Origin: Alphaproteobacteria bacterium
GTDB taxonomy: Bacteria > Pseudomonadota > Alphaproteobacteria > CALKHQ01
Direction: 5' to 3'
Assembly: GCA_965227515.1 (NCBI GenBank)
Contig: CBDDFZ010000002.1
Coordinates: 800,001 to 864,000 of the forward strand
Length of the DNA stretch: 64,000 bases
Shown: one piece after another, positions 12,362 to 56,401 of the stretch
How positions within the stretch are numbered: position 1 is the stretch's first letter
Layout: every line of letters begins with the position of its first letter
The notes under the pieces: model-generated
Database searches by the model: none
What the model was told of the DNA's origin: nothing
What the model saw: the letters and a program-made list of their open reading frames with translations, nothing else
Translations under genes and position numbers: made by a program

Positions 12362-13159
12362 TCACCCGCCGTGTCGTCCGGCGAACCGGGCAACATGGGT
12401 GACGGCGAACAGGGCTGCGGCCGTCACCACCATGGTCGGCCCGGTCGGGCTGTCGGCGGCAAACGAGATGCCGAGGCCGCCCAGGGCCGCAACCACGCCG
12501 ATGGCGACCGCCAGCAGCGCCATCGCCTCCGGCGTGCGGGTCGGCGCGCGCGCCGCCGCCGCCGGCACGATCAGCATGGCGGCAATCAGCAGGGCACCGA
12601 CCACCTTGATCGCCACCGCAACGGTCAGCGCCAGTGCCACGGTCAGCACGAGCTGCTCGCGGCGCGGGTCGATGCCGCTGGCGACGGCCAGGTCGCCGTC
12701 CAGGCTCGCCGTCAGCAATGCCGACCAGCGCCACGCCAGCAGCGCGAGCACCGCCGCGGCCCCGCCCCAGATCACCGCCAGATCGGTTTTGCTGACCGCC
12801 AGGATGTCGCCGATCAGGTAGCTCATCAGGTCGACACGCACGTCGGCCATGAACGACACCGCGACCAGGCCGGCGGCGAGCGCCGTGTGCGACATCACGC
12901 CCAGCAGCGTGTCGGTTGCCTGGCCCCGGCCGCTGAGGGCGGCGACCAGCAGCGCCATCATCAGCGCCACCGCCACCACGCCCACGTAGATCGAGATCGA
13001 GAACCCAAGAGCCACGGCCACGCCCAGGATGGCGGCGTGCGCGGTGGCGTCGCCGAAATAGATCATCCGCCGCCACAGGATGAAGCAGCCCAGCGGCCCG
13101 GCGGTCAGCGCCAGGGCGACGGCGGCCAGGCCGGCGCGCACCATGAAGTCGTCCAGCAT
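12362..13159 (-). CDS. znuB: Zinc ABC transporter permease
   Basis: GPLGCFILWRRMIYFGDATAHAAILG, YLIGDILAV, KVVGALLIAAMLIVPAAAAR. Confidence 0.95.
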   Translation of the reverse strand: MLDDFMVRAGLAAVALALTAGPLGCFILWRRMIYFGDATAHAAILGVAVALGFSISIYVGVVAVALMMALLVAALSGRGQATDTLLGVMSHTALAAGLVAVSFMADVRVDLMSYLIGDILAVSKTDLAVIWGGAAAVLALLAWRWSALLTASLDGDLAVASGIDPRREQLVLTVALALTVAVAIKVVGALLIAAMLIVPAAAARAPTRTPEAMALLAVAIGVVAALGGLGISFAADSPTGPTMVVTAAALFAVTHVARFAGRHGG

Positions 13160-13923
13160 CAGGCCGCGGCCCCGTCATCGTTATGGTGATCGTGACCGTG
13201 GCCGTGGTCATGACCGTTAGATGGGTCGTGAACGTGGTCGTGGTGATGCTCGTAGAGCGCGAACGCATCGCGCCCGAACAGCGCCCGGTATTCCGGTGCG
13301 GCGGTCACGAATGTTGGGGTGCCCTGGCAGCAGATATGGCCGTTCAGGCAGATCACCCGGTCGGACGCGCCCATCACGACGTTGAGGTCGTGGCTGACCA
13401 GCAGCACCGCGCAGCCCAGGTCGTGGCGCACGTCCGCCAGCAACCGGTAGAAGGCCGCGATCGCCGGCTGGTCCAGGCTCTGGGTCGGTTCGTCCAGCAC
13501 CAGCAGATGGGGCCGGTCGGCCAGCGCGCGGGCCAGCAGGACGCGCTGCAACTGGCCGCCGGACAGCGTTGCCATCTGCTGGCGCTCCAGCCCGTCGGCG
13601 CCCACGCGGGCCAACGCGTCGGCAACATCCTTACGCGGGCGCCGACGGGGCAGGTTGAGGAACCGCTCGACCGTCATCGGCATGGTCGCGTCGACGGCCA
13701 GCCGTTGCGGCACGTAGCCGATCTTCAGGCCGCGCATGCGGCGCAGGCGGCCGCCGCTGGGCCGCAGCGCGCCGATAAGTGCGCGTACGAAGGTCGACTT
13801 GCCAGCGCCGTTGGGGCCGACCACGGTCACGATCTCCGACGGCTCGATCGTGAAGTCGACGTCGTGCAGCACCCGGCGCCCGCCGGCGTCGACCGCCAGG
13901 GATGCGGCTGTGAGCAAGCTCAT
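13159..13923 (-). CDS. znuC: Zinc ABC transporter ATP-binding protein
   Basis: GPNGAGKST, LSGGQLQR, LDEP, VICLNGHICCQGTP, His-rich tail. Confidence 0.95.
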   Translation of the reverse strand: MSLLTAASLAVDAGGRRVLHDVDFTIEPSEIVTVVGPNGAGKSTFVRALIGALRPSGGRLRRMRGLKIGYVPQRLAVDATMPMTVERFLNLPRRRPRKDVADALARVGADGLERQQMATLSGGQLQRVLLARALADRPHLLVLDEPTQSLDQPAIAAFYRLLADVRHDLGCAVLLVSHDLNVVMGASDRVICLNGHICCQGTPTFVTAAPEYRALFGRDAFALYEHHHDHVHDPSNGHDHGHGHDHHNDDGAAA

Positions 13924-13947
13924 GCGCGAAAGCCCCTATGAAGTTCC

Positions 13948-13970
13948 GTGATGTTATAATATAACATTTC
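13948..13970. promoter_or_regulatory. Zur box between divergent znuC and znuA
   Basis: Perfect palindrome ATGTTATA-A-TATAACAT (13951-13967) followed by TTC; matches the proteobacterial Zur consensus GAAATGTTATA-W-TATAACATTTC. Confidence 0.92.
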
Positions 13971-14009
13971 TTGCTCTGACAGAGGCCGCGACGCGTGGGA
14001 GTTTTCGGA

Positions 14010-14996
14010 ATGGGGGCAAGATGGGCGTTGGCGCCATGGGCTGCAATGGTCTTGGTCGCCGGAACCGCATTGGCGGGCCTTGCGGGGGCCAGCGCTGCCC
14101 GGGCAGAGGGGCCGTCGGTCGTGACCGATATCGCGCCGGTGCAGTCGTTGGCGGCGACGGTGATGGAGGGGGTCGGCACGCCGACCCTGATCCTGCCGCC
14201 GGGGGCTTCTCCGCACGGCTATGCCATGCGCCCGTCGGAGGCTGCAAGCCTACAGGACGCCGATATCGTGTTCTGGGTCGGCCCAGCGCTGGCGCCGTGG
14301 CTGGCGCGCGCCATCGACAACCTGGCGCCGGATGCGCTCGTGGTCGAGCTGATGGCGGTCAAGGGCGTGAAACTGCTGGCGTCGCGCGTCGAGCACGCCC
14401 ACATCGCCGACGGCCACGGCCATATCGAGGCCCATGATGGGCACGATAACGGCCTGCAAGGCCGCGCCGCCGTGGACCCGCACGTCTGGCTGGATCCGGT
14501 CAATGGCATCGCCTGGCTCGACGCCATGGCCACGGCCCTGTCGGAGGCCGACCCGGCCAATGCCGAACGCTACCGCGCCAATGCCGAAGCGGGGCAGGCG
14601 GCGCTGCAGGCCTTGACCGACGACATCGCGGCCCGGTTGGCGCCGGTGGCCGGCTTGCCGTTCGTGGTGCGGCACGATGCCTTTCACTACTTCGAGCATC
14701 GCTTCGACCTGGGCAGTGCCGGCGCGATCGCACTCGGTGACGCCGTGGCACCGGGGCCGGCGCGGCTGGCCGAGGTCGTGACCCTGGTCCGCGACCGCAA
14801 CGTCACGTGCGTGTTCACCGAGCCCCAGTTCGACGAGGGGCTGGCCGAAACGGTGGCCGAGGGCAGTGGGGCCAGGATCGTGGTGCTGGACCCGCTGGGC
14901 ACCGCGCTGGAGCCGGGTCCCGCCCTCTATGGGCAGTTGTTGGACGACATGGCCGATACAGTGGCCGGGTGCCTGTCCGGCTCAGGCGCTCACTGA
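14010..14996 (+). CDS. znuA: Zinc ABC transporter substrate-binding protein
   Basis: Signal peptide, GASPHGY, His-rich loop, DPHVWLDP, HDAFHYFE, CVFTEPQF, LDPLG. Confidence 0.94.
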   Translation: MGARWALAPWAAMVLVAGTALAGLAGASAARAEGPSVVTDIAPVQSLAATVMEGVGTPTLILPPGASPHGYAMRPSEAASLQDADIVFWVGPALAPWLARAIDNLAPDALVVELMAVKGVKLLASRVEHAHIADGHGHIEAHDGHDNGLQGRAAVDPHVWLDPVNGIAWLDAMATALSEADPANAERYRANAEAGQAALQALTDDIAARLAPVAGLPFVVRHDAFHYFEHRFDLGSAGAIALGDAVAPGPARLAEVVTLVRDRNVTCVFTEPQFDEGLAETVAEGSGARIVVLDPLGTALEPGPALYGQLLDDMADTVAGCLSGSGAH

Positions 14997-15997
14997 CCGG
15001 CCGGATTCACCGTCAGGTCGACGACCAGCGGCAGGTGGTCGGAGCCATTGGGGGCGCCCACCGTCACGTCGCGGACGGCAACGGATGAGTCGACCAGCAC
15101 ATGGTCGATGGGAATGCCGAACCAGCCGAACATCGAAAGCCAGGTCGCAACATAGCCGTAGCCGTCGGCGGCATTGCGCAGCTCGGTGGCCTCCATCAGG
15201 TCGTTCCACAGCGGCGAGTACGGCGTGGTGTTGAAGTCGCCCAGCATGATGGTGGGGTGTTCCGCGTCCGCCACCGCCTCGGCCATCGCCTCCAGATAGC
15301 GCCGGCGTACCGACATATAGCGTTCGCGGATCGGATAGGGCGGGTGGACGGCAATCACGCTGATCAGCCGGCCGTCGATCTCGATCTCCGCGGACGGGAA
15401 GACCAGGCCGAAGCCGCGGCCGTCGCGGATGTCGAAATGCTGGATCGGGTGCCGGCTGAGCAGGATGACGGACTGGTGGTACTCCCAAATCAGCGGCGCC
15501 GCGTAGGGATAGAGCTCGATCAGTTCGGCCGGCGGGTCGTAGGACCACGGCGTGGTCTCCTGTAGCGCGATCACGTCTGCGTCGTAGGCTTTGATCTGCT
15601 CCAGGACCTGGCCGGGCGTGGGGTTGTTGGAGAGCATGTTGATCGAGGCGATGCGCAGCTCCAGCCCGTCGTCGGCCGCGGCCGGGCCGCCGGACGGCAG
15701 ATAGGCGGGCGCTAGCCACCAACCATGAACGGCCATGCAGGCAATCGTCGCCAGGGTCGCGATGCGCCGCCGGCAGGGGATCGCGAAGGCCAGGACCACC
15801 AGACCGATCAGCACGTAGTGCATCCGGAAATGGGTCAACAGGTCGAACGGCCACCAGGTCCGGGCGAAGAACGTCAGCGCCGTGGCCCCGAGCAGGCACA
15901 GCATCACCAGTTCGACCGGCGGCCACACCAGTTCGCGCCAATCGAGGCGTCGGCGGCGGGCCGGCCGTGCGTCGATGGTCTGGTCGGAGGCTGTCAC
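14990..15997 (-). CDS. Membrane-anchored endonuclease/exonuclease/phosphatase family protein
   Basis: N-terminal TM helices; DVIALQE, GDFNTTP, IDHVL, GSDHLPL. Confidence 0.88.
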   Translation of the reverse strand: MTASDQTIDARPARRRRLDWRELVWPPVELVMLCLLGATALTFFARTWWPFDLLTHFRMHYVLIGLVVLAFAIPCRRRIATLATIACMAVHGWWLAPAYLPSGGPAAADDGLELRIASINMLSNNPTPGQVLEQIKAYDADVIALQETTPWSYDPPAELIELYPYAAPLIWEYHQSVILLSRHPIQHFDIRDGRGFGLVFPSAEIEIDGRLISVIAVHPPYPIRERYMSVRRRYLEAMAEAVADAEHPTIMLGDFNTTPYSPLWNDLMEATELRNAADGYGYVATWLSMFGWFGIPIDHVLVDSSVAVRDVTVGAPNGSDHLPLVVDLTVNPAGQ

Positions 15998-16271
15998 GTG
16001 TCGATGCTGCCTGTTGGGGGACGAACGAGTGCGTGGTGCGCGGTCAAGGTGCCGAAATTATGGCGCCCGGCGTCATCAGTGTGCCTGGCAATGGTGTCGG
16101 TCGCGTAAAGGCCGGGCGGTGGTTGGCTTGGCGCCACCATGACGGCGGCCAGCCGATGCGGTTATACCAGTCCCGCCATGACGGGCACGCGAATCGCGCC
16201 TGGGGAAGGACGCAGCATGAGCATGCGACGCGCAACAGCAAGGGGATGTGGGCGTTGAGGCCGCGGTCGTG

Positions 16272-17579
16272 ATGCGCGCCCTGGTGAGACTTGGCGACCT
16301 GCTGGAGCGCGCCAACATCTGGATGCTGGTCGGCCTGACCGTCCTGGTGCGCGCGCTGGTGGCGGTTTTCGCGCCGGCGTTTCCCAACCTTCCCGATGCG
16401 CTGGCGTACAGCCAGGGCGCCCAGCAATTGTGGGCCGCCGGCCAGATCGTCGACAACAATACCCTGCCGGTCTATCCGCTGTTTCGGCTGATCACGGGCG
16501 ATGGGGTGGCGACTCTGATTGCCGAGTTCCTGCTCTCGGGCCTGTGCGCATGGCTGCTCTTCCTGCTGGCGCAACAGCTCGGCGGCCGGCGGTTGGCCGG
16601 TGTGCTCGCCGCGCTGGTCTGGGCGATCTACCCGATGGCGGCGTTCTATGCCGTGGTCGGGCTGACCGAGAACTTCTTCGTCGCCTTGATGCTGGGGGCG
16701 ACGGTGCTGCTGTACCGCCGCAGCTACTGGGCGGCATCGCTGCTGCTGGTGCTGGCCGGCCTGACCCGTGGATCGGTGGAGATCGTCGGCCTGCTGATGG
16801 TGGCATCGGCGGCGGTCATCGTGCATCGGGAGCGCTGGGCCGTCACCGGGCGCGCCGTGGCCGTCTATGTGGCGCTGTACGTCGTGCTGTCAGCGCCCTG
16901 GTGGTGGCACAACTACGAGAAGTTCGGCGTGTTCGAGCGCACGACCCTGGCCGACGGCGTGGTGCTCTATGCCGGCAACAATCCGTTGAACTGGTCGGGC
17001 GGCGGGGTCGGCGACACCGCCAACGCGCCGCCGGACTTCGACATGGCGCAGTTCGACCATCTGCTGGGCGACCCGGTGGCGCGGCGCGACGCACAGGTGG
17101 CCGCCGCGATGGACTTCATCTCCGAGAACCCGGATCGGTTCGTCGAACTGGCGTGGATCAAGTTCCTGCGCTTCTGGCGGCTGACGCCCTTCACGCCCGA
17201 CTACCAGGTGTGGTGGATCGATGCGCTGCTGATCGTCAGCTACGGCCCGGTCCTGGCGTTCGCGATCTGCTATCTGGCGGTGTTCGGGTGGCGACGGTTC
17301 TGGCACCTGTCACCGGTTCTGGGGTTCATCGCCTTCGTCATGCTGGTGCACATGGCGACCATCGCGTCGATCCGCTACCGCTTCCCGGTCGAGCCGTTCC
17401 TGATCGTGTTCGCCGCGATGTTCGTCGACCGCGTGTGGCCGCGCGGCAGGTCGGACGATGGGACCTACGAGGCGAGCTTGGCGTCCGCACCCGCTTCGGC
17501 GCGGGCGTCGGCACCGTCGTCGGCATCGTCGTCGGGAATGCCGGCCAGTACCTCCGGCCAGCCCGACCAGGGGCCATAG
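16272..17579 (+). CDS. ArnT/PMT-like (GT-C fold) membrane glycosyltransferase
   Basis: Multi-TM; PDALAY, PVYPLF, LTENFF, PWWWHNY, LYAGNNP, RYRFPVEP. Confidence 0.78.
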   Translation: MRALVRLGDLLERANIWMLVGLTVLVRALVAVFAPAFPNLPDALAYSQGAQQLWAAGQIVDNNTLPVYPLFRLITGDGVATLIAEFLLSGLCAWLLFLLAQQLGGRRLAGVLAALVWAIYPMAAFYAVVGLTENFFVALMLGATVLLYRRSYWAASLLLVLAGLTRGSVEIVGLLMVASAAVIVHRERWAVTGRAVAVYVALYVVLSAPWWWHNYEKFGVFERTTLADGVVLYAGNNPLNWSGGGVGDTANAPPDFDMAQFDHLLGDPVARRDAQVAAAMDFISENPDRFVELAWIKFLRFWRLTPFTPDYQVWWIDALLIVSYGPVLAFAICYLAVFGWRRFWHLSPVLGFIAFVMLVHMATIASIRYRFPVEPFLIVFAAMFVDRVWPRGRSDDGTYEASLASAPASARASAPSSASSSGMPASTSGQPDQGP

Positions 17580-19342
17580 ACCTCGCGCTCGAACGTCTCG
17601 GCATCGATCGGCTTGGAGACGAGATAGCCCTGGGCGTACTCGCAGCCCAGACGGCGCAGCTCGCGCGCGATCTCCACGGTCTCCACGCCTTCCGCCACCA
17701 CGGCCAGGCCCAGACTGTGCGCCAGTTCCATCGTGGAGCGGACGATTGCCGCATCATGGGTGCGTTCGATCATCGGGCCGACGAATGCCTTGTCGATCTT
17801 CAACTCGTGAACTGGCAGCCGGGTGAGATAGGCGAGCGACGAGTAGCCGGTGCCGAAATCGTCGATGGAAAGCCGGATGCCGGTTTCCGCCAAGGCATGG
17901 GCGACCGCCAGCGCGGTATCGGCATCGTGCATGACCGCACTTTCCGTCACCTCAATGGTCAGCTTCTCCGGCGGGATGTTGAGGGCGCTCAGATGCTCGG
18001 CGACGTCCTCCGCCAGCGCCACGTCATACATCATGCGCGCCGACAGGTTGATGGCGACGCCCATGTCGATATTGCGCCGCCGCCAGTCGGCCATCTGCGC
18101 GCAGGCCGTCTCCAGTGTCAGCCGGGTCAGGTCGTTGATCAGGCCCGTGCGCTCGGCCTGGATGATGAACTCGTCGGGTGAGATGTGGCCGAGCTTCTCG
18201 TGGTGCCAGCGCGCCAGCGCCTCGGCGCGCTGGACGCGGCCGCTGGCGAGGCACAGCTTCGGCTGGTAGTTGAAATAGATGTCGGCGTTCTCGATCGCGC
18301 GCTTCAGTTCGCCGGTCAGGGTGAGATGGCGGATCGAATTGTGGTCGGCGGAGGCGTCGTAGACCGAGACGGTGTGTCCGTTGTCCTTGGCCAGATACAT
18401 CGCCACGTCGGCGCACTTCATCAGGCCGCTGTCGTTGGTGGCATTCTCCGGGTGCAGGGCCACGCCGATGGAGCTGCCGATGCTGATCGACAGGTCGCGC
18501 AAGGTGAATGGGCGCGCGATCTCGGCGCCGAACCGCTCCGCCATCGCCGAGGCGGAGTCCGCGTCCGGGCAGTCCGGCAGGATGATCGCGAACTCGTCGC
18601 CGCCGAGCCGCGCCACGATTTGATTGGGCTTGGCCAGATTTGTCAGCCGCCGGGCGACCTGGCACAGCAACTCGTCGCCGACATCGTGGCCCAGGGTGTC
18701 GTTGATGTCCTTGAACCGGTCCAGGTCGATCAGCAGCAGCGAGAAGCCGGTTGGCCCGGTGCCGGCATCGACTTCCGCAATCAGCCGGTTCAGGTGCGCG
18801 CCGAGACTTGGCCGGTTGGGCAGCTTGGTCAGCGCATCGTGATTGGCCTGGAACTCCAGCCGGCGCTGCTGGGCGCGGCGCTCCGAGATGTCGCGCAGCA
18901 CGACGACCGTGGACCGTTCGCCGCCGGCATCGGTGCGGTTGATCGCGTATTCCACCGGGAATGCGCGTCCGCCCAGGCTCCTGGCGTCGGTCTCGTGATA
19001 GCTGCTGTCGTCCGCCGCACCTTCGGCCTGCGCTGCCAGCCGCACCGCGACGGCAGGCAGGATCTCGGCCAGCGGAATGTCTTCGGGCGCGCGCTCGCCC
19101 ATTTCGAACAGCTTCGCTGCCGACTGGTTCGCCGCGGCGATCCGTCGTTCGGAGTCGATGATCAGGATGCAGTCGAAGGTGGTTGCGAAAATACCCGACA
19201 TCACCGCATCGGACCGGCGCAGCCGCACCGCCCGGTTGGCCGCGATATCGGCGTTGCGGTCCGAGATCATCACCCGGTAGCGCTGCACATATTGCTGCAA
19301 TGCGTTGCCGCGTGAGGCGTTCTTGAAGGAGTTTGAGAACAT
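17465..19342 (-). CDS. PAS-GGDEF-EAL diguanylate cyclase/phosphodiesterase
   Basis: PAS ending RDISER; HDALTKLPNR, DLDRFKDINDTLGH, RLGGDEF; YQPK, AEALAR, EVTES, IDDFGTGYSS, KID, AEGVE, QGY. Start at ATG 19342, 23 nt after the HerA stop. Confidence 0.93.
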   Translation of the reverse strand: MFSNSFKNASRGNALQQYVQRYRVMISDRNADIAANRAVRLRRSDAVMSGIFATTFDCILIIDSERRIAAANQSAAKLFEMGERAPEDIPLAEILPAVAVRLAAQAEGAADDSSYHETDARSLGGRAFPVEYAINRTDAGGERSTVVVLRDISERRAQQRRLEFQANHDALTKLPNRPSLGAHLNRLIAEVDAGTGPTGFSLLLIDLDRFKDINDTLGHDVGDELLCQVARRLTNLAKPNQIVARLGGDEFAIILPDCPDADSASAMAERFGAEIARPFTLRDLSISIGSSIGVALHPENATNDSGLMKCADVAMYLAKDNGHTVSVYDASADHNSIRHLTLTGELKRAIENADIYFNYQPKLCLASGRVQRAEALARWHHEKLGHISPDEFIIQAERTGLINDLTRLTLETACAQMADWRRRNIDMGVAINLSARMMYDVALAEDVAEHLSALNIPPEKLTIEVTESAVMHDADTALAVAHALAETGIRLSIDDFGTGYSSLAYLTRLPVHELKIDKAFVGPMIERTHDAAIVRSTMELAHSLGLAVVAEGVETVEIARELRRLGCEYAQGYLVSKPIDAETFEREVYGPWSGWPEVLAGIPDDDADDGADARAEAGADAKLAS

Positions 19343-19365
19343 CTGGGGCGCTCGGGCGCTTGTCG

Positions 19366-20988
19366 TCAGCGCGCCAGGCGCCAGCGGCTGACCAGATCGC
19401 TCATGAAGTCGCCGTCGCTGACGTCCGACTGCCAGGCGGATGTGAACGACGCCGTGCCGCTGCGCGGTCGCTTCTCCGGCGGAAGCTCGTCGAAGCGCAT
19501 CCGCAGCGGCACCGCCACGCCTTCGCCGAGCGCGATCGCCTCGCCGTTCAGCAATGACGGCAGCAGGTCGAGCAGGCCGCCGCTCCAGTCCGGCATGCCG
19601 CCGCGCACGAATTCCTGGTCGGTGCGGCTGGTCAGGCGCATGGAGAACACGGTGTTGCACTGGGACAATGCCTGAATTGCCAGGTCCGACGGCCGCTGGC
19701 TGACGATGCCGAGCGACAGGCCGTACTTGCGGCCCTCCTTGGCGATGCGCGACAGGGCGCGCTTCGTCGGCTCGAAGCCCAGCCGGGTCTGCTCGGGGAT
19801 GTAGCGGTGGGCTTCCTCGCAAACCAGCAGGATCGGCATCGCACGGTCGCAGAAGAACGCAAAATCGAAGGTCAGCCGCGCCAGCACCGAGACGACGATG
19901 TTGATCACCTCGGACGGGATCGATGACATGTCGATGATGGTGATCGGCTTGCCGTCGACCGGCACCCGGAACAATTGCGACAGGATGGCGGCCATGTTGT
20001 CGCGCAGCGACAGCCCGGTCGGGAACATGAACCGGTAGCGCGGGTCGGCCTTGAACGACGACAGCTTGCCCTTCAGGCGCATGTATGGCGTCAGGGACTC
20101 CGCCTTGTCCAGCCGGCCCATCTCGTCCTCGAGCGCCTTGAACACGTCGGAGATGCGGTAGGGGACGGGCGAGTCCACGGTGAGCTGGCCGCCGGCCTTC
20201 TCGTCGTTGCCGACGAAATTGCGCTTCGCGGCGACGATCAGCTCGGACAGGATCGAGACTTCGGCGACAGCGTCCTGCTCCGGTGACTGGATCTGCATCA
20301 CCGCGGCCGACAATTCCTCAAGATTGAACAGCCAGTACGGCAGTTTCAGGTTGGTGACGTCGATCAGTTCCGCCATGTCCTTGAAGGCGGCGGCGTACTC
20401 GTTGTGCGGGTCCAGCAGCACCACGTGCGCGTTGGGGTTCGCCTCCAGGATGCGGTGCAGGATCAGCGCCGTGGCGCAGGACTTGCCGGTGCCGGTCGAG
20501 CCGAGCACGGCGAAGTGCTTGCCGAGCAGGTCGTCGGGCGCGGCGCAGGCCGGGATGGATGGGTCGTGGAACACCCCGCCCAGGCGGATCGTCGCCTTGT
20601 CCGGCAGGCTGTAGACGCGCGAGATATCCTCCGACGTCGCGACCATGACCGGTGCGCCGACCGCCGGCAGATGCGACACGCCGCGCTGGAACTTCATCTC
20701 GCCATGGCCGGGGGAAGACTTGGGGGATTCGCCCAGCAACTCCAGCTCGGCAAACACGAAAGTGGACTGGTCGGGGTCGACGCTGGGAGTCGGCATGGTG
20801 ACACCGGTCACCAGACCGAAGATCCAGGTGTCGCCGGCCGAGATGCGTGCCAGCATGCCGGCCCGCAACGCCGTGTCGCTGCCGGGTGCGGCCTCGTCGT
20901 CCAGCAAGACGACCACTTCCGAACCGGTGATACTGGCGACGCGACCGACGATCATTTCGTCGATGGCACGTGCCGCTCCGCCATCCAT
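19366..20988 (-). CDS. HerA/FtsK-superfamily ATPase (DUF87/HerA-like) with N-terminal HAS-barrel-like domain
   Basis: VGRVASITGS beta-rich N-terminus; KHFAVLGSTGTGKS (Walker A), LLDPHNEY, LVCEEAHRY (Walker B), RIAKEGRKYG and SQRP (arginine finger); GGAG RBS. Confidence 0.9.
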   Translation of the reverse strand: MDGGAARAIDEMIVGRVASITGSEVVVLLDDEAAPGSDTALRAGMLARISAGDTWIFGLVTGVTMPTPSVDPDQSTFVFAELELLGESPKSSPGHGEMKFQRGVSHLPAVGAPVMVATSEDISRVYSLPDKATIRLGGVFHDPSIPACAAPDDLLGKHFAVLGSTGTGKSCATALILHRILEANPNAHVVLLDPHNEYAAAFKDMAELIDVTNLKLPYWLFNLEELSAAVMQIQSPEQDAVAEVSILSELIVAAKRNFVGNDEKAGGQLTVDSPVPYRISDVFKALEDEMGRLDKAESLTPYMRLKGKLSSFKADPRYRFMFPTGLSLRDNMAAILSQLFRVPVDGKPITIIDMSSIPSEVINIVVSVLARLTFDFAFFCDRAMPILLVCEEAHRYIPEQTRLGFEPTKRALSRIAKEGRKYGLSLGIVSQRPSDLAIQALSQCNTVFSMRLTSRTDQEFVRGGMPDWSGGLLDLLPSLLNGEAIALGEGVAVPLRMRFDELPPEKRPRSGTASFTSAWQSDVSDGDFMSDLVSRWRLAR

Positions 20989-21066
20989 GGCTGCTCCAAT
21001 TATCGGCTCGCGCGAAATGAAAATATATGGGGGGGGCGCGTGCCCCTTCGCGCTGTCTGAATTCTC

Positions 21067-21092
21067 CTAAAATGTACCTAAAACTCTATTAA
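21067..21092 (-). promoter_or_regulatory. Putative tandem CtrA-type site upstream of the HerA-GGDEF/EAL operon
   Basis: CTAA-AATGTAC-CTAA-AACTCTA-TTAA on +, i.e. TTAA-N7-TTAG-N7-TTAG on the coding strand, in an AT-rich island. Confidence 0.5.
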
Positions 21093-21136
21093 ATGGGCGG
21101 CGGAACGGGTTGCCGGCGGCTGGGTCGGAACCGCGC

Positions 21137-22096
21137 TCAACGCCGGACCGCGCGCGGGTCCAATGCGTCCTGCAGGCCATCGCCCAGGAAGTTGAACGCG
21201 ATCACGGTGACGAAGATCGCGAGCCCGGGGAAGATCGCCAGGGTCGGCGCGCGCGATGCGTATTCCTGCGCGTTGGTCAGCATCCCGCCCCAACTCGGGA
21301 TCTGCGGCGGGATGCCCAGGCCCAGATAGCTGAGCACGCTTTCGGTCAGGATGATGCCGCCGATCGACAGCGTCGTTGCCACCACCAGCGGCGAGATCGC
21401 GTTCGGCAGCACATGGCGCCAGATGATGCGCGCGTCGCTGGCGCCCAGCGCCTTGGCCGCGCGCACGAATTCGCGCTCGCGCAGGGAAAGCGTCGCGCCA
21501 CGCACGAGGCGGGCGACGGTGGTCCAGCCGAACAGGCTGATGATGATGATGATCCGCCACACCCCGGCGGACTCGTCGCTGGCGATATCGGCCGGGATGC
21601 CGAGCTTGGTCAAGTCCAGGGCGGCCAGGATGATCAGTACCGGCAGCAGAGGCAGGGCGATCACGCCGTCGGTGATGCGCATCAGGAGGGAGTCCGTGCG
21701 CCCGCCGTAGTAGCCGGCGACGACCCCGATGACGGCGCCGATCACACTGGCCACCAGCGCCGACATCACGCCGACGAACAATGAGATCTGACCGGCCTCC
21801 AGCATGCGCACGAACACGTCGCGCCCGGCGGCGTCGGTGCCGAGCAGGTGCTCGTCGGACGGTGCCGCGTACTGGTTGAACAGGTCGACGGTATAGCCGT
21901 CGTGGCCGACCCAGGCCGCGAACAGGGGGGCTGCCAGCGACAACAGGGCCATGATCACGATGACGACCAGGCTGATCACGGCGGGCGGGTGGTGCAGGAA
22001 GCGGCGCCAGAACCCCTCGCGCATCAGCACGGCGGTCGCATCGGGTGCGGCTGCGTTGGCGCGGCTGAGTTCGGAGTGCATCTGCGCCATTGTCAC
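21137..22096 (-). CDS. Peptide ABC transporter permease (OppC/DppC-like)
   Basis: HLLGTDAAGRDV, EFVRAAKALGAS, HVLPNA, SWGGML, FNFLGDGLQDALDPR. Confidence 0.93.
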   Translation of the reverse strand: MTMAQMHSELSRANAAAPDATAVLMREGFWRRFLHHPPAVISLVVIVIMALLSLAAPLFAAWVGHDGYTVDLFNQYAAPSDEHLLGTDAAGRDVFVRMLEAGQISLFVGVMSALVASVIGAVIGVVAGYYGGRTDSLLMRITDGVIALPLLPVLIILAALDLTKLGIPADIASDESAGVWRIIIIISLFGWTTVARLVRGATLSLREREFVRAAKALGASDARIIWRHVLPNAISPLVVATTLSIGGIILTESVLSYLGLGIPPQIPSWGGMLTNAQEYASRAPTLAIFPGLAIFVTVIAFNFLGDGLQDALDPRAVRR

Positions 22097-23046
22097 TGCA
22101 GCTTCACGCGTGGGTCGAGGTAGCTGTACGCGAGATCGGCCATCAGATTGGCCAGCAGGATCGCCACTGTCGTAAGCAGCAGGGCAGCCAGCGCCAGATT
22201 GTAGTCATTGCCCATGATGGCGTCATAGATCGTGCGGCCCATGCCGGGGTAGGAGAACACCTGCTCGGTGATCAGCGCGCCGGAAAACAGGGTGCCGAAG
22301 TCCAGCGCCATGATGGTGACGATGGGGATCATCGCGTTGCGCAGCGCGTGGTTGCGCACGACGCCCAGTGTCGAGAGGCCCTTGGCACGTGCCGTGCGCA
22401 CATAGTCCTGGCGCATCGCCTCGATCATCGCGGCGCGGGCGTGGCGGGTGTAGACGGTCAGGCTCGCCACCGTCAGCGCCATCACCGGCAGCACCTGATA
22501 GCTCGCCCAGCCCAGGAAGCCGTCGCGGGCGATGGACCCGCCGCCGGAGGGCGGTAGCAGGTGCCATGTCACCGAGAACAGCAGCATCAACAGTAATGCG
22601 AGCCAGAACGACGGCACCGAGATGCCGGCAAAGCAGAGCAGGTTGACGACGTAGTCGGTGATCGATTGCGGCTTCAGCGCCGCCGCGATGCCGGCGGGGA
22701 TCGCGATTGCCAGCGCCAGCACGAAGCTGAGGCCGAGCAGGATCATCGTGTTGCCGAGGCGAGGCAGCAGGATGTCCATCACCGGTACGCGGTAGGTGCG
22801 GGAATAACCGAACTCACCCTGCAGCAGGTCGCTTGCCCAGTTGGCGTAGCGCACGACCAGGGGCTGGCCCAGGCCGTAGCGTTCCTTCAGCCGCTCGGCA
22901 TCGGCCGCGGTCAGGTCCGGGTTCGACTGCACCATGACGTCGATGGGGTCGCCGGGCATCAGCCCGATCAGCACATAGATCAGGAACGAGACGATGACGA
23001 CGAGGGCGACGACGCCCAGCAAGCGCCTGGCCAGATAGGCGTACAT
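22093..23046 (-). CDS. Peptide ABC transporter permease (OppB/DppB-like)
   Basis: MPGDP, DYVRTARAKGL, HALRNA, EQVFSYPGMG, YSYLDPRV. Confidence 0.93.
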   Translation of the reverse strand: MYAYLARRLLGVVALVVIVSFLIYVLIGLMPGDPIDVMVQSNPDLTAADAERLKERYGLGQPLVVRYANWASDLLQGEFGYSRTYRVPVMDILLPRLGNTMILLGLSFVLALAIAIPAGIAAALKPQSITDYVVNLLCFAGISVPSFWLALLLMLLFSVTWHLLPPSGGGSIARDGFLGWASYQVLPVMALTVASLTVYTRHARAAMIEAMRQDYVRTARAKGLSTLGVVRNHALRNAMIPIVTIMALDFGTLFSGALITEQVFSYPGMGRTIYDAIMGNDYNLALAALLLTTVAILLANLMADLAYSYLDPRVKLQ

Positions 23047-23091
23047 GCGCGGCGGTGCGGTGCGATGCGTGGGCTGCGGTGAGACGCGGCC

Positions 23092-24777
23092 CTATTCGGC
23101 GCGCCGCCAGTTCTCCACCCACAGCGTGCTCGGCCCCATGTGGCCGGTCGGCGTTATCCCTTCCAGCCACGGCGCCATCACGAACGGCTGTGCGCGGAAG
23201 TAGAGCGGCAGTACCGGTAATTCCTCGGAGTAGATCACCTGCAGCCGGTCCCACAATTCCTGCCGGGCCGGCTCGTCGCACACGACCTCCAGATCGTCGA
23301 TGATCTGGTCGACCTCGGTGTTGGTGAAACCGGTGTAGTTCTGGCCCGCCCAATTGTTCTCCTCGGTCGGGACCATGGTGGAGTGCAGCGTGGTGCGGGG
23401 AATGTTGTTGGGCGCGCTGATCCAGGCGAACATCGCCATGGAGTCGAACTGGCGCTGGCCGATGGTCTGGCCGAACAGCACCCGCGCCGGCTCGTTCTTG
23501 ATCCGCACGTCGACGCCGACGTCGCGCCACTGGCTCTGCAGCACCTGCTGCACCAGCTCGCGAGTGGTGTTGCCGGCGGTCGTCATGATCGTCAGCGTCA
23601 TCTCGTCGCCGGCGGCATTGGTGCGGACGTCGTTGCCCGGTTCCAGGGTCCAGCCGGCCTCGTCCAGCATCTGGGCGGCGAGTTGCGGATCGTAGGGGTA
23701 GATCGGCACCACGTCGTTGTAGACTGAGTCCAGCGGGTTGATGTTGGAATGCGCCACCGGCTGCTCGCCGGCGAAGAGCTGGGTGGAGATCGCCTCGCGG
23801 TCGATGGCGTGCAGCAACGCGCGGCGCACATTCAGGTCAGCCAGGATCGGGTTTTCCAGGTTCAGGTCGACGTGCTCGTAGAGCAGGGACGGCTGGTAAA
23901 CGATGGCGTAGTCGTCGCCGTGCGCCTGCTCGAAGGCCAGGGTCTGGTCCAGCGACAGGCCGTCCTCGCCGGCGATGTAGTCGATCTCGCCGGCCAAGAG
24001 ATTGGCCTCCATCGCGGGGGTGCTCTCGATCACCTTGAAGCGGATGGAGTCGAAGAACGGCGCCTCGCCCCACCAGTGGGGGTTGCGCTCAAGGTAGATG
24101 TTGGCGCCGGGCTCGATCTCGACCACGCGATAGGGGCCGTACCAGAGCGCCGCGTTGGCGGTGTCGGTGTCGTAGAGGTTGCGCTCCGGATAGGCCTCGG
24201 GTGCTGCCTCGAACACCTCACGCTCCAGATGTGCGGGGATCAGGTCGAAGTTGTTGATGCCCTGGTAGTTGCAGCTGACGTTGTCGGTCTGCAGGGTGAA
24301 GGTCTTGTCGTCGACAACTTCGATATCAACGATGTCGTTGGCGAACAGCTCGAAGTTGATGACGCCGGACTGCGGGTGCCGCCCGACCTCCCAGGTGTAC
24401 ATTACATCCTCGGTGGTGATGGGCGTGCCGTCGCCCCACACAGCCTCGGGCAGCAGGGTATAGGTCACGGCCCAGCCTTCGCCGCCGCCAAGCTCCTCGG
24501 GAATCTCGCGCACCTCGGCGCGGCCGTTCTCCTCCGTCGGCAATTCGGTGCAAAGGAAGCACATCAGCTCCCAGTCGGTACCGTACTCGGTGATCGGCCG
24601 CCGGGTCATGCCGTGCACCAGCGATTGCACCACGTGCGCTTCGGTCAACGGGTTGAAGCTGGACGGGTATTGCCCCACGCCGATCACCAGCTCGCCATCG
24701 GCCATAACCCCGGAAGCACCCCCGGCGATTGCCGCGGTCATGGCGGTGGCGGAAAGGATGGATCGGCGGATCGTCAT
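23092..24777 (-). CDS. Peptide ABC transporter substrate-binding protein (family 5)
   Basis: Signal peptide, WGDGTPITTEDV, GPYRV, VRRALLHAIDRE, LPVLPLY. Confidence 0.92.
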   Translation of the reverse strand: MTIRRSILSATAMTAAIAGGASGVMADGELVIGVGQYPSSFNPLTEAHVVQSLVHGMTRRPITEYGTDWELMCFLCTELPTEENGRAEVREIPEELGGGEGWAVTYTLLPEAVWGDGTPITTEDVMYTWEVGRHPQSGVINFELFANDIVDIEVVDDKTFTLQTDNVSCNYQGINNFDLIPAHLEREVFEAAPEAYPERNLYDTDTANAALWYGPYRVVEIEPGANIYLERNPHWWGEAPFFDSIRFKVIESTPAMEANLLAGEIDYIAGEDGLSLDQTLAFEQAHGDDYAIVYQPSLLYEHVDLNLENPILADLNVRRALLHAIDREAISTQLFAGEQPVAHSNINPLDSVYNDVVPIYPYDPQLAAQMLDEAGWTLEPGNDVRTNAAGDEMTLTIMTTAGNTTRELVQQVLQSQWRDVGVDVRIKNEPARVLFGQTIGQRQFDSMAMFAWISAPNNIPRTTLHSTMVPTEENNWAGQNYTGFTNTEVDQIIDDLEVVCDEPARQELWDRLQVIYSEELPVLPLYFRAQPFVMAPWLEGITPTGHMGPSTLWVENWRRAE

Positions 24778-24917
24778 GGCTCACCCCTGCGCAGTGGTCA
24801 TTGTTGCGGCTGCGGTCGCCTGGCCGGCGACCGCCGCTTCCGTCATGATCCCGTAATAGCGCGATTGGGGCGAGCCGTCACATCAGTTGATCGGCATGAG
24901 ATCCGTCATCCTGGAAC

Positions 24918-43018: not shown

Positions 43019-43096
43019 CTCCTCCTAGAAGCTGACCGGCCGCATCGAGAAAGACGATGCTGGGATGCCATCAGTCGAAGGTTGGGTTCGTTCTGG

Positions 43097-43144
43097 TAAA
43101 CGAAGAGTTAACACCAAGATTAATGTCACGTTTAATTCCCTTAA
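43097..43144. promoter_or_regulatory. TTAA half-site array / putative CtrA-type site in the divergent promoter region
   Basis: TAAA-N7-TTAAC (43097-43112) plus TTAA at 43120, 43132 and 43141. Confidence 0.45.
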
Positions 43145-43325
43145 TGTCTAGCCGCGATGCCCGGCGCTCCAGGGGTTGCTCCATCGGGCGATCCAGGGCC
43201 GGCACTGCGCGTACCCTCGACGTCCCGGCGTCGACAACGCTATGGTGCGCCGCGACGCGGGAACGAGGTCGGCCGGGCGGCGACCGTCCGGCAGAAGTTG
43301 GTTAAGGATTGGCTGCGACTGGACC

Positions 43326-56363: not shown

Positions 56364-56378
56364 TTAAGCGCTATTTAA
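56364..56378. promoter_or_regulatory. CtrA-type box upstream of the BTLCP gene
   Basis: Exact TTAA-GCGCTAT-TTAA (TTAA-N7-TTAA) within the AT-rich tract at about 56270-56400. Confidence 0.65.
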
Positions 56379-56401
56379 AAGGTCGCAGGTAAAACAATCT
56401 C

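What the first reader, a model, noticed from the sequence alone, without database searches (positions are those of the whole stretch)
17465..21092. HerA-like ATPase coupled to a PAS-GGDEF-EAL enzyme: possible ATPase-gated c-di-GMP signalling module
Seen: a 540-aa HerA-type ATPase with intact Walker A/B and KEGRKYG/SQRP motifs is followed 23 nt later by a cytoplasmic PAS-GGDEF-EAL protein with both catalytic signatures intact. That protein has an extra ~45-aa N-terminal helical segment (LQQYVQRYRVMISDRNADIAANRAVR). The pair has its own AT-rich upstream region with CtrA-like sites. Known: characterised HerA proteins partner with NurA or with Sir2/nuclease defence effectors; neither is adjacent here. 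Inference: the hexameric ATPase may dock on the N-terminal helix and control c-di-GMP output, making this a signalling rather than a DNA-processing use of the HerA fold.
Basis: partly seen in the sequence, partly recalled or inferred. Interest (0 to 1): 0.75.

Follow-up and report, generated by a model that had tools for sequence, protein, structure and literature searches.

The report
HerA ATPase paired with tagged signalling enzymes
A ring-ATPase of the HerA family sits next to a c-di-GMP enzyme here, and across Alphaproteobacteria its close relatives are always paired with sensor-less signalling enzymes that carry one special N-terminal helix, which suggests that the ATPase serves as their input device.

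Summary
A 540-aa HerA-fold ATPase (19366-20988, minus strand) is followed 23 nt later by a 625-aa helix-PAS-GGDEF-EAL protein (17465-19342). All catalytic motifs are intact.

In a tree of 126 HerA relatives, a well-supported subclade of 35 rows contains the window's gene. Thirty of those 35 have a signalling enzyme next door: 20 small sensor-less histidine kinases, 3 GGDEF-EALs and 7 PAS-GGDEF-EALs.

The kinases and some GGDEF-EALs share a roughly 40-aa N-terminal tag (SLLxRYxxQLG...). In 401 alphaproteobacterial genomes, all 15 full-length tag matches lie within 1.6 kb of this HerA gene. None occurs elsewhere.

The window's N-terminal helix is a diverged copy of this tag. Profile-profile comparison gives P 4e-5, and a bridging protein aligns collinearly from residue 1.

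The closest solved relative is the Paenibacillus SIR2-HerA complex. Its HerA clamps the effector's N-terminal helix between two beta-barrel domains, and complex formation activates it.

Most likely, then, the HerA ring docks the tag and gates the signalling enzyme. Docking itself is not shown. I rate this a new variant of the HerA-plus-effector theme. Interest is about 0.72.

The parts
19366..20988 (-). HerA-family ATPase, 540 aa. It belongs to the signalling-linked subclade of an alphaproteobacterial HerA clade.
   Evidence: AlphaFold2 model pLDDT 90.9. Foldseek TM 0.77-0.82 to SIR2/HerA and HerA-DUF4297 chains. Tree placement.
20641..20952 (-). N-terminal beta-barrel (HAS) domain of HerA, residues about 13-116. 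Inferred docking surface.
   Evidence: Strands 13-116 in the model. Four of the 7 subclade-specific conserved positions (16, 24, 62, 66) lie here. In the Paenibacillus relative this domain brackets the effector's N-terminal helix.
20479..20502 (-). Walker A, GSTGTGKS (residues 163-170).
   Evidence: G163, T165, G166, G168, K169 and S170 are invariant in 61 sequences.
17465..19342 (-). Helix-PAS-GGDEF-EAL protein, 625 aa. Both catalytic signatures are intact.
19181..19342 (-). N-terminal segment, residues 1-54 (helix 14-54). A diverged copy of the HerA-associated tag.
   Evidence: Helix. hhalign against the tag alignment: probability 70%, P 4.1e-5, and the reciprocal HMM ranks tag proteins next. 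Collinear from residue 1 with tag-bearing P0106. The only such segment in the genome.
18872..19174 (-). PAS domain (residues 57-157).
   Evidence: Pfam PAS_4, 9.5e-08.
18374..18847 (-). GGDEF domain (residues 166-323).
   Evidence: Pfam GGDEF, 1.1e-42. Coordinates confirmed.
17609..18310 (-). EAL domain (residues 345-578).
   Evidence: Pfam EAL, 3.4e-71.
19343..19365 (-). 23-nt intergenic spacer between HerA and the GGDEF-EAL gene.
   Evidence: No terminator-like site.
20989..21136 (-). 148-nt region upstream of HerA. It holds a GGAG 7 nt before the ATG and one CtrA-like site with 1 mismatch (21078-21092).

Best explanation
The two genes form a functional pair. The HerA-fold ATPase, presumably a hexamer like its solved relatives, binds the N-terminal helix (tag) of the PAS-GGDEF-EAL protein. 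The likely site is between neighbouring N-terminal beta-barrel domains. This would set the oligomeric state or helix geometry of the enzyme, and so its c-di-GMP synthesis or hydrolysis. In sister lineages the same ATPase subclade is paired in the same way with a sensor-less histidine kinase, or with a GGDEF-EAL in which the tag runs straight into the catalytic-domain linker helix. The ATPase would therefore act in trans as the input module of enzymes that lack a sensor of their own.

Shown here: the gene pair, the intact motifs, the conserved linkage, the exclusive tie between tag and ATPase, and the fold.

Inferred: docking, the docking site, the direction of control, and what the ATPase senses (DNA or nucleotide state are guesses).
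For: 1. **Linkage in the tree.** In a FastTree of 126 HerA rows, a subclade with 99% local support holds 35 rows: 20 with a tag-kinase next door, 7 with a PAS-GGDEF-EAL, 3 with a tag-GGDEF-EAL and 5 with none. The window groups with its 3 family relatives and a Defluviicoccus MAG (99%). None of the other 91 rows has a tag-bearing or PAS-GGDEF-EAL partner. Two of them have an untagged signalling gene next door: L128, a membrane kinase, and L139, an EAL-only protein.
2. **Even sample.** In 401 alphaproteobacterial genomes drawn evenly, I analysed 50 clade loci. Thirteen have a tag-kinase immediately upstream on the same strand, 2 have a convergent tag-GGDEF-EAL, and 5 have a PAS-GGDEF-EAL (4 downstream on the same strand, 1 divergent).
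3. **Tag exclusivity.** The tag profile A4 (21 sequences) gave 14 full-length matches at E <= 1.3e-14 and one at 1.4e-3 in those 401 genomes. All 15 lie within 1.6 kb of the HerA match. No genome without the HerA has one. All other matches cover only the generic coiled-coil half of the model.
4. **Tag repertoire.** Against 1.84 billion representative proteins the tag profile found 112 proteins: 65 kinase-type, 7 GGDEF(-EAL), 2 tag-PAS(-GGDEF), 7 generic internal matches, 1 odd and 30 domain-less fragments. No other output class appeared.
5. **The window's helix is a diverged tag.** hhalign of six PAS-GGDEF-EAL N-termini against A4 gives probability 70% and P 4.1e-5, in register. An HMM of those six N-termini, searched against 1267 N-termini, ranks six canonical tag proteins directly after its own members (E 4.8e-4 to 0.12). 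P0106 carries a canonical tag followed by PAS and GGDEF. It aligns with the window's protein at 35% identity, collinear from residue 1. SLL..Y occurs in 17 of the 1267 N-termini: 14 tag proteins, the two PAS-GGDEF-EALs L035 and L152, and one unrelated protein.
6. **Uniqueness in the genome.** Of the 11 GGDEF matches in this genome, only the HerA-adjacent one carries the segment. The next hit has E 0.82.
7. **Negative control.** None of 80 metagenome loci with tagless PAS-GGDEF relatives holds a HerA or a tag.
8. **Structural precedent.** The closest solved relatives are anti-phage HerAs (8wiv at E 1.5e-116; TM 0.77-0.82). [quoted passage not shown] Complex formation activates both enzymes (PMC11472057: abstract passages, section 23).
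9. **Subclade-specific residues.** Four of 7 subclade-specific conserved positions lie in that barrel.
Against: - No direct evidence of binding exists.
- The kinase-derived tag HMMs do not detect the window's helix. A first hhalign with 5 sequences was weak (P 0.004, probability 8%).
- The PAS-GGDEF-EAL linkage rests on few lineages, probably one origin plus L152. L152 sits on a long branch with odd composition.
- A helix in front of a PAS domain can simply be a PAS N-cap or dimerisation helix.
- Five of the 35 subclade members have no partner. Three genomes of family f37 show no tag anywhere.
- In three genomes the tag-GGDEF-EAL is convergent to HerA, so co-transcription is not general.
- Related genomes are not independent, so the counts overstate the number of independent events.
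- The enrichment of subclade-specific positions in the barrel is marginal. I calculated about P 0.03 by hand (binomial); no tool produced that figure.
- FastTree with SH-like support was the only tree method that finished. The maximum-likelihood run timed out.
Confidence: 0.55

Rival explanations
1. The pair is a variant anti-phage defence system of the HerA-plus-effector type. The signalling enzyme (c-di-GMP turnover, or a kinase) replaces SIR2 or DUF4297 as the effector. The HerA ring senses phage DNA.
For: - The best PADLOC hit is a defence-system HerA model (1.1e-119).
- The closest solved structures are all anti-phage HerAs.
- Distribution is patchy in some families: f4 1 of 4, f14 1 of 4.
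- The docking logic would be the same as in SIR2-HerA.
Against: - NCBIfam anti-phage HerA models score far below their cut-offs: 278.7 against 850, and 150.5 against 800.
- Neighbours are housekeeping genes (ABC transporter, HtpG, ValRS, NADH dehydrogenase subunits, DegP), not defence genes.
- The gene is present in all sampled members of several families (f1 3 of 3 plus the window, f10 3 of 3).
- HerA groups mostly follow family labels in the tree, which fits vertical descent.
- The effector has no PADLOC hit.
Confidence: 0.15
2. The two proteins bind, but control runs the other way, or the tag is a substrate. Either the signalling enzyme uses its tag to recruit or regulate the HerA motor (for example by placing c-di-GMP turnover or kinase activity where the motor works on DNA), or the ATPase threads or unfolds the tagged N-terminus to switch the enzyme off.
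For: - The element shared by the partner types is the tag, not the catalytic output. The data therefore show coupling but not its direction.
- In SIR2-HerA, complex formation also stimulates the ATPase and helicase activities of HerA (abstract of PMC11472057).
- A basic, disordered stretch precedes the tag.
Against: - In the kinases and the PAS-less GGDEF-EALs the tag runs straight into the helix that leads to the catalytic domain. That is the usual route for input-to-output signalling.
- These enzymes have no other sensor domain.
- No solved HerA is known to me to thread proteins. This is recalled, not tested.
Confidence: 0.17
3. There is no functional coupling in this genome. The HerA is a DNA-processing motor, the GGDEF-EAL is an ordinary PAS-regulated enzyme whose N-terminal helix is just a PAS N-cap or dimerisation helix, and the adjacency is inherited synteny.
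For: - The same-strand HerA/PAS-GGDEF-EAL arrangement is seen in one small branch (window, 3 family relatives, L035) plus L036.
- The kinase tag HMM does not detect the window's helix.
- The helix has low model confidence.
Against: - The branch is nested in a subclade where 30 of 35 members have a signalling partner.
- The helix is homologous to the tag by profile-profile comparison and by a bridging sequence.
- It is unique to the HerA-adjacent protein among the 11 GGDEF matches in the genome.
- Tagless PAS-GGDEF relatives are not next to HerA in 0 of 80 loci.
- No NurA partner for a repair role was found in the genome.
Confidence: 0.13

Closest known systems
SIR2-HerA anti-phage system (Paenibacillus sp. 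453MF, PDB 8wiv/8wld; E. coli Nezha, 8j4u/8su9)
   Same: The HerA is the closest solved relative by sequence profile (E 1.5e-116, aligned over residues about 6-292 and 367-604, including the C-terminal W...WR tail) and by fold (TM about 0.78). It is a two-gene module of a HerA ring plus an enzyme. The effector is held through its N-terminal helix between two HerA beta-barrel domains, and assembly activates it (PMC11472057).
   Different: The partner here is a PAS-GGDEF-EAL (or a histidine kinase in sister lineages), not a SIR2 NADase. The gene order is HerA first. The context is a chromosomal housekeeping neighbourhood. The NCBIfam anti-phage HerA cut-offs are not reached.
DUF4297-HerA anti-phage system (PDB 8xau/8xav, 9c1m, 8ziq)
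   Same: Second-closest solved HerAs (E 7.6e-115 to 5e-100; TM 0.75-0.82). The effector docks on the HAS domain of the HerA hexamer, and assembly brings effector domains together to activate them (PMC11291478, passages read).
   Different: The effector there is a PD-(D/E)xK nuclease that is held through its C-terminal domain and a hook, not through an N-terminal helix. No nuclease gene is adjacent here.
HerA-NurA DNA end-resection machine (archaea, Deinococcus/Thermus)
   Same: The same ATPase family and domain order (4d2i at E 2.2e-39, 9x1l at 5e-51).
   Different: No NurA gene is adjacent, and none was found in the genome. Similarity is much lower than to the anti-phage HerAs.
KaiC-SasA/CikA (hexameric ATPase feeding a histidine kinase). 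Recalled from general knowledge, not tested here.
   Same: As an analogy only: a hexameric RecA-superfamily ATPase acts as the input for a kinase that binds it through an N-terminal module.
   Different: Unrelated ATPase family and unrelated docking domain. No sequence or structural link was tested.

Membership tests
HerA family (FtsK/HerA superfamily; Pfam PF01935) | Central HerA/DUF87 ATPase domain above the Pfam gathering score | tested here: met
   139.9 bits against a cut-off of 23.2.
HerA family (FtsK/HerA superfamily; Pfam PF01935) | Three-part fold: N-terminal beta-barrel (HAS), RecA-like core, inserted helical bundle | tested here: met
   Model pLDDT 90.9. Full-length Foldseek matches to solved HerAs, TM 0.66-0.82.
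HerA family (FtsK/HerA superfamily; Pfam PF01935) | Walker A and Walker B motifs and conserved arginines intact | tested here: met
   Read. Invariant in 61 relatives.
HerA family (FtsK/HerA superfamily; Pfam PF01935) | Hexameric ring, with DNA translocation | not testable with these tools
   A hexamer exceeds the size limit of the complex tool. No experiment was possible.
SIR2-HerA / DUF4297-HerA anti-phage systems | Adjacent SIR2 or DUF4297 effector gene | tested here: not met
   Neighbours are OppC upstream and PAS-GGDEF-EAL downstream. No such gene stands next to HerA in any of the 9 relatives' loci scanned.
SIR2-HerA / DUF4297-HerA anti-phage systems | HerA reaches NCBIfam's curated anti-phage HerA score | tested here: not met
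   NF042944: 278.7 bits against 850. NF042943: 150.5 bits against 800.
SIR2-HerA / DUF4297-HerA anti-phage systems | Protection against phage | not testable with these tools
   Needs a plaque assay.
HerA-NurA repair complex | NurA nuclease gene adjacent, or at least present in the genome | tested here: not met
   No PF09376 match in the genome (99.67% complete). The control search rang in 7 of 14 genomes.
Bifunctional-type GGDEF-EAL c-di-GMP enzymes | GGDEF and EAL domains with catalytic signatures (GGDEF; EAL, DDFGTG, EGVE, QG) | tested here: met
   Pfam 1.1e-42 and 3.4e-71. Motifs read and invariant in the alignments. Enzyme activity was not tested.
HerA-associated N-terminal tag (family defined here, alignment A4) | Full-length match to the tag profile (SLLxRYxxQLG... 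followed by a helix) | tested here: inconclusive
   Not detected by the kinase-derived HMMs. Detected by hhalign (probability 70%, P 4.1e-5) and by reciprocal HMM ranking. Collinear with tag-bearing P0106.
HerA-associated N-terminal tag (family defined here, alignment A4) | The gene lies next to a HerA of the signalling-linked subclade | tested here: met
   23 nt downstream. Subclade placement at 99% support.

The most novel reading that the evidence does not exclude
A subclade of HerA ring-ATPases has been taken over from DNA-processing or defence roles to serve as a trans-acting sensory input for bacterial signal transduction. It would read some state, perhaps DNA ends, foreign or translocating DNA, or the ATP/ADP ratio. 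It would pass that state on by clamping a dedicated N-terminal tag on sensor-less histidine kinases and c-di-GMP enzymes. That would be a new class of input module for two-component and second-messenger signalling.
Probability: 0.35. Interest if true: 0.85.

Novelty: new variant of a known kind. Interest (0 to 1): 0.72.

Why it matters
Many histidine kinases and GGDEF/EAL enzymes have no recognisable sensor, and how they are controlled is an old open question. This case offers a concrete, testable answer for one group. The proposed input device is a dedicated ring-ATPase encoded next door, recognised through a roughly 40-residue tag. The known HerA-plus-effector principle (assembly on the HerA ring activates the partner) would then extend from phage defence and DNA repair to ordinary signalling. 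The tag also gives a simple sequence handle for finding partners. The experiments are easy to design: tag deletion, barrel mutants, a Walker A mutant, and kinase or c-di-GMP assays with and without HerA. Full-text searches for HerA together with histidine kinase, c-di-GMP or GGDEF listed no paper on such a module. I saw only listings and abstracts, and most subscription journals are not in that library.

Tried and rejected
- **Complex prediction** (window HerA with alignment A5, plus residues 1-55 of the GGDEF-EAL with alignment A6). Verdict: no answer, score 0.00, controls not run. This is no evidence either way. A 1:1 design cannot show a helix held between two protomers.
- **The look-up of sequencing runs for RNA**. 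No RNA holder is listed, so co-transcription remains untested.
- **Whole small-kinase alignment A3 against 401 genomes**. Not discriminating: 260 genomes matched through the generic kinase core, and only 5 candidates per genome were scored. I draw no co-occurrence figure from it.
- **The search for homologous proteins on residues 1-55 and 1-165 of the GGDEF-EAL**. The results were self, one orthologue (P0004, nearly identical to the L025 protein) and two unrelated PAS kinases. The family is rare in that collection.
- **Metagenome scan with P0106**. A generic GGDEF pattern dominated it, and P0106's own contig was not recovered. I used it only as a negative control.
- **Tag profile against PDB sequences**. 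Nothing relevant was found (best E 0.67).
- **Maximum-likelihood tree with treekit defaults**. It did not finish in 300 s, so I used FastTree instead.
- **Loci left out.**
  - Matches in G390 and G083 (E 7e-168 and 2e-153) were not fetched.
  - G370 and the split match in G315 were also not fetched.
  - Distant HerAs (G056, G023, G348, G316, G187; E 1e-84 to 1e-95) were not analysed. Their loci L032 and L033 are AT-rich, and my GC3-based gene caller failed on them.
  - L070 had no gene called.
  - Of 129 collected HerA sequences, 3 were dropped before the tree (shorter than 450 aa, or duplicates).
- **Rejected idea:** that the 452-aa convergent ORF (16221-17579) is a partner. It is not conserved next to HerA in the three family relatives.
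- **Gene calls.** Gene calls in all loci come from my own longest-ORF plus GC3 heuristic. Start codons are approximate, and some opposite-strand ORFs are spurious (for example cluster c8 over the Alph_Pro_TM gene).


Full report
**1. What is in the window**

On the minus strand, ORF 19366-20988 encodes a 540-aa protein.
- It matches Pfam DUF87/HerA central domain at 1.7e-40.
- It matches a PADLOC HerA model over nearly its full length at 1.1e-119.
- It stays far below NCBIfam's curated scores for anti-phage HerA (278.7 against 850) and for repair HerA (126.1 against 970).
- Walker A (GSTGTGKS), Walker B (LLVCEE), KEGRKYG and SQRP are present. Most of their residues are invariant in 61 relatives.

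Its stop codon is followed by 23 nt and an ATG at 19342. The 625-aa product has a PAS domain (57-157), a GGDEF domain (166-323) and an EAL domain (345-578). The GGDEF, EAL and DDFGTG signatures are intact. An AlphaFold2 model built on 6 sequences predicts one long helix, residues 14-54, in front of the PAS domain, at low confidence (pLDDT 55-65).

Upstream lie three genes of an ABC importer (SBP_5, OppB-like, OppC-like). Downstream lies a convergent ORF of about 450 aa with no Pfam match. No terminator-like site occurs anywhere in 17000-21400. One CtrA-like site with one mismatch lies at 21078-21092.

**2. Fold and nearest solved relatives**

The HerA model is confident (pLDDT 90.9, pTM 0.90). 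Foldseek's best matches are the HerA chains of the SIR2/HerA complex (8wld, 8wiv) and of HerA-DUF4297 complexes (9c1m, 8xav, 8zit), with TM 0.73-0.82. HerA-NurA and E. coli Sir2-HerA score lower.

A sequence profile of 61 relatives gives the same order: 8wiv at 1.5e-116, 9c1m at 7.6e-115, 8xau at 1.1e-101, E. coli Sir2-HerA at 2.2e-54, and archaeal HerA at 2.2e-39. The alignment to 8wiv runs from the barrel to the C-terminal tail.

No NurA match was found in the genome.

**3. Is the linkage to signalling genes conserved?**

- *Occurrence of the clade.* HerA orthologues (40-61% identity) occur in 10 of 61 related genomes. At least 591 places in the one-genome-per-species collection encode a relative.
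- *The 79 best loci with a called HerA gene*. About 45 are Sphingomonadales with a fixed TauE, Alph_Pro_TM, HerA order. Eight have a roughly 300-aa soluble histidine kinase (HisKA plus HATPase_c, no sensor domain) immediately upstream, often overlapping the HerA start. Two have a GGDEF-EAL gene downstream on the same strand: L035 a PAS-GGDEF-EAL, and L036 a tagless form with a degenerate GGDEF motif. One has a convergent GGDEF-EAL.
- *Even sample of 401 alphaproteobacterial genomes* (56 with a match at E <= 1e-60). I fetched 49 loci and add the window, which makes 50 of the 52 matches with E <= 1e-150. G390 and G083 were left out. Thirteen have the small kinase immediately upstream on the same strand. 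Two have a convergent GGDEF-EAL without a PAS domain. Five have a PAS-GGDEF-EAL: the window and its three family relatives downstream, and L152 divergent. Two more have an unrelated signalling neighbour: L128, a membrane kinase, and L139, an EAL-only protein.
- *Tree.* In a FastTree of 126 HerA rows, all these partners fall into one subclade with 99% local support. It holds 35 rows: 20 kinase, 7 PAS-GGDEF-EAL, 3 GGDEF-EAL and 5 without a partner. The window lies inside it, next to its family relatives and a Defluviicoccus MAG.
- *Paralogues.* Three genomes (G156, G343, G288) carry two HerA paralogues, one from this subclade and one from outside it. This suggests the subclade has a function of its own.

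**4. The N-terminal tag**

*Definition.* The small kinases share a conserved N-terminus: a basic stretch, then SLLxRYxxQLGxhhERRxxExAL, running as a helix into the HisKA domain.

*It recurs on a second output.* An HMM built from ten kinase N-termini alone finds the N-terminus of the GGDEF-EAL next to HerA in L037 (E 2e-12). It later finds those of L121 and L137 as well. The same tag therefore sits on two different outputs.

*It is exclusive to HerA neighbours.* The tag alignment A4, searched over the 401 genomes, gave 14 full-length matches (E <= 1.3e-14) and one weaker match (G098, 1.4e-3). Comparing coordinates between searches shows that all 15 lie within 1.6 kb of the HerA gene. Every other match covers only the second, generic coiled-coil half of the model. 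Genomes without this HerA have no full-length match.

*Repertoire in the large library.* Against 1.84 billion representative proteins the profile found 112 proteins. By Pfam (my count) they comprise:

| Class | Proteins |
|---|---|
| Kinase-type (two with a receiver domain) | 65 |
| GGDEF or GGDEF-EAL | 7 |
| Tag-PAS or tag-PAS-GGDEF | 2 |
| Large proteins with internal generic matches | 7 |
| Odd fragment | 1 |
| Short fragments without a domain | 30 |

No chemoreceptor or other output class appeared.

**5. Is the window's helix this tag?**

- *Direct detection fails.* The kinase-derived HMMs do not hit it, nor anything else in the six-frame translation of the genome. A first hhalign with 5 sequences was weak (P 0.004).
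- *First positive result: profile-profile comparison.* With six PAS-GGDEF-EAL N-termini against the 21-sequence tag alignment, hhalign gives probability 70% and P 4.1e-5, in the expected register.
- *Second positive result: reciprocal search.* An HMM of those six N-termini, searched against 1267 N-termini of all genes called in my loci, ranks six canonical tag proteins directly after its own members (E 4.8e-4 to 0.12).
- *Third positive result: bridging sequences.* The library search found P0090 and P0106. They carry a canonical tag followed by a PAS domain (57-156) and a GGDEF domain (from 168), the same layout as the window's protein. P0106 aligns with the window's protein at 35% identity, collinear and ungapped from residue 1 to 60.
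- *Supporting detail.* Two PAS-GGDEF-EALs next to HerA (L035, L152) keep the exact SLLxRY start. That motif occurs in only one unrelated protein among the 1267.
- *Uniqueness.* Within this genome the segment occurs once, on the HerA-adjacent protein, among 11 GGDEF matches.
- *Control.* Eighty metagenome loci with tagless PAS-GGDEF relatives contain no HerA and no tag.

I conclude that the window's helix is a diverged member of the tag family. This is probable, not proven.

**6. How it most likely works**

The precedent comes from the closest solved relative. In Paenibacillus SIR2-HerA, the effector binds mainly through its N-terminal alpha1 helix, which two HerA beta-barrel domains bracket. 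Barrel mutations abolish the complex and the defence. [quoted passage not shown] In DUF4297-HerA the effector also docks on the HAS domain, and assembly brings the nuclease domains together (PMC11291478, passages).

By analogy, I propose that the ring of this HerA subclade clamps the tag helices of its partner. Both kinases and diguanylate cyclases depend on the geometry of a dimeric N-terminal helix. Clamping would therefore be a direct way to switch them. Consistent with this, 4 of 7 positions that are conserved in the subclade but different outside it lie in the barrel. That enrichment is marginal.

In the window's protein a PAS domain lies between the tag and the GGDEF domain, so a second signal may be integrated.

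What the ATPase itself senses is unknown. DNA or nucleotide state are guesses from the family's known activities.

**7. Rivals**

- *A defence-system variant (0.15).* This fits the sequence kinship. It does not fit the housekeeping neighbourhoods, the sub-threshold NCBIfam scores, or the family-wide presence.
- *Coupling with reversed direction, or the tag as a substrate (0.17).* The data cannot exclude this.
- *Plain synteny with a PAS N-cap helix (0.13).* The tag evidence and the subclade-wide pattern argue against it. However, the PAS-type linkage itself rests on few lineages.

**8. Limits**

- No binding, activity or transcription data exist.
- The complex prediction gave no answer.
- No RNA run is listed.
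- Gene calls in the loci are heuristic.
- The tree is FastTree only, with several long branches (L152 among them).
- Related genomes are not independent.
- The papers cited were read as passages or single sections, not in full, and no supplements were consulted.
- Full-text searches for HerA with histidine kinase and Alphaproteobacteria, with c-di-GMP and ATPase, and with GGDEF listed nothing that describes such a module. I judged this from titles and abstracts only.

**9. Verdict**

The pair is best seen as a new variant of the HerA-plus-effector theme, with signalling enzymes as partners and a dedicated N-terminal tag as the probable docking element. Interest is 0.72.

Noticed in passing
window 21137-24780 (-): An ABC importer operon (SBP_5, OppB-like and OppC-like permeases) has no ATPase gene in the row. 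It lies directly upstream of HerA here and in all three family relatives (L023-L025). Whether HerA is read through from it is unknown.
   Followed up: partly
L045-L113 (about 45 loci), e.g. L097:5038-5802, L071:4049-4963: In Sphingomonadales the HerA of the sister clade always follows TauE (PF01925) and Alph_Pro_TM (PF09608) on the same strand. This triad is conserved and unexplained, and it has no signalling partner.
   Followed up: partly
window 16221-17579 (+): This ORF of about 450 aa has high GC3 (0.89) and no Pfam match. The protein atlas places it near PMT_2-like membrane glycosyltransferases, which is a lead only. Its 3' end overlaps the 3' end of the GGDEF-EAL gene by about 115 nt, in convergent orientation.
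   Followed up: partly
window 43097-43134 and 56364-56378: Two CtrA-like sites (1 mismatch each) lie 8 nt apart in the divergent region between the genes ending at 43024 and starting at 43152. A perfect TTAA-N7-TTAA lies just upstream of the gene starting at 56393. The window holds 5 such sites, against 0.4 expected.
   Followed up: no
G156 (L121, L134), G343 (L117, L122), G288 (L152, L145): Three genomes carry two HerA paralogues of this clade. One has a signalling partner and one has none.
   Followed up: partly
L036:3281-5149: The gene after HerA here is an EAL protein with a degenerate GGDEF motif and an Ala/Pro-rich N-terminus without the tag. It is a different partner form, or a decayed one.
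   Followed up: no
L029, L118, L123 (family f37): These members of the signalling-linked subclade have no partner, and the tag search found no tag in their genomes. In L029 a TraB/PrgY/GumN-family gene follows HerA.
   Followed up: partly
P0058, P0091: Two tag-bearing kinases are hybrid forms with a receiver domain, and P0058 also has an Hpt domain. This hints at a phosphorelay downstream of the tag-kinases. Their genomic context is unknown.
   Followed up: no
window 12362-14996: A znuABC-like zinc uptake cluster: ABC-3 permease, ABC ATPase and a divergent ZnuA. An Exo_endo_phos family gene lies at 14990-16057 (-).
   Followed up: no
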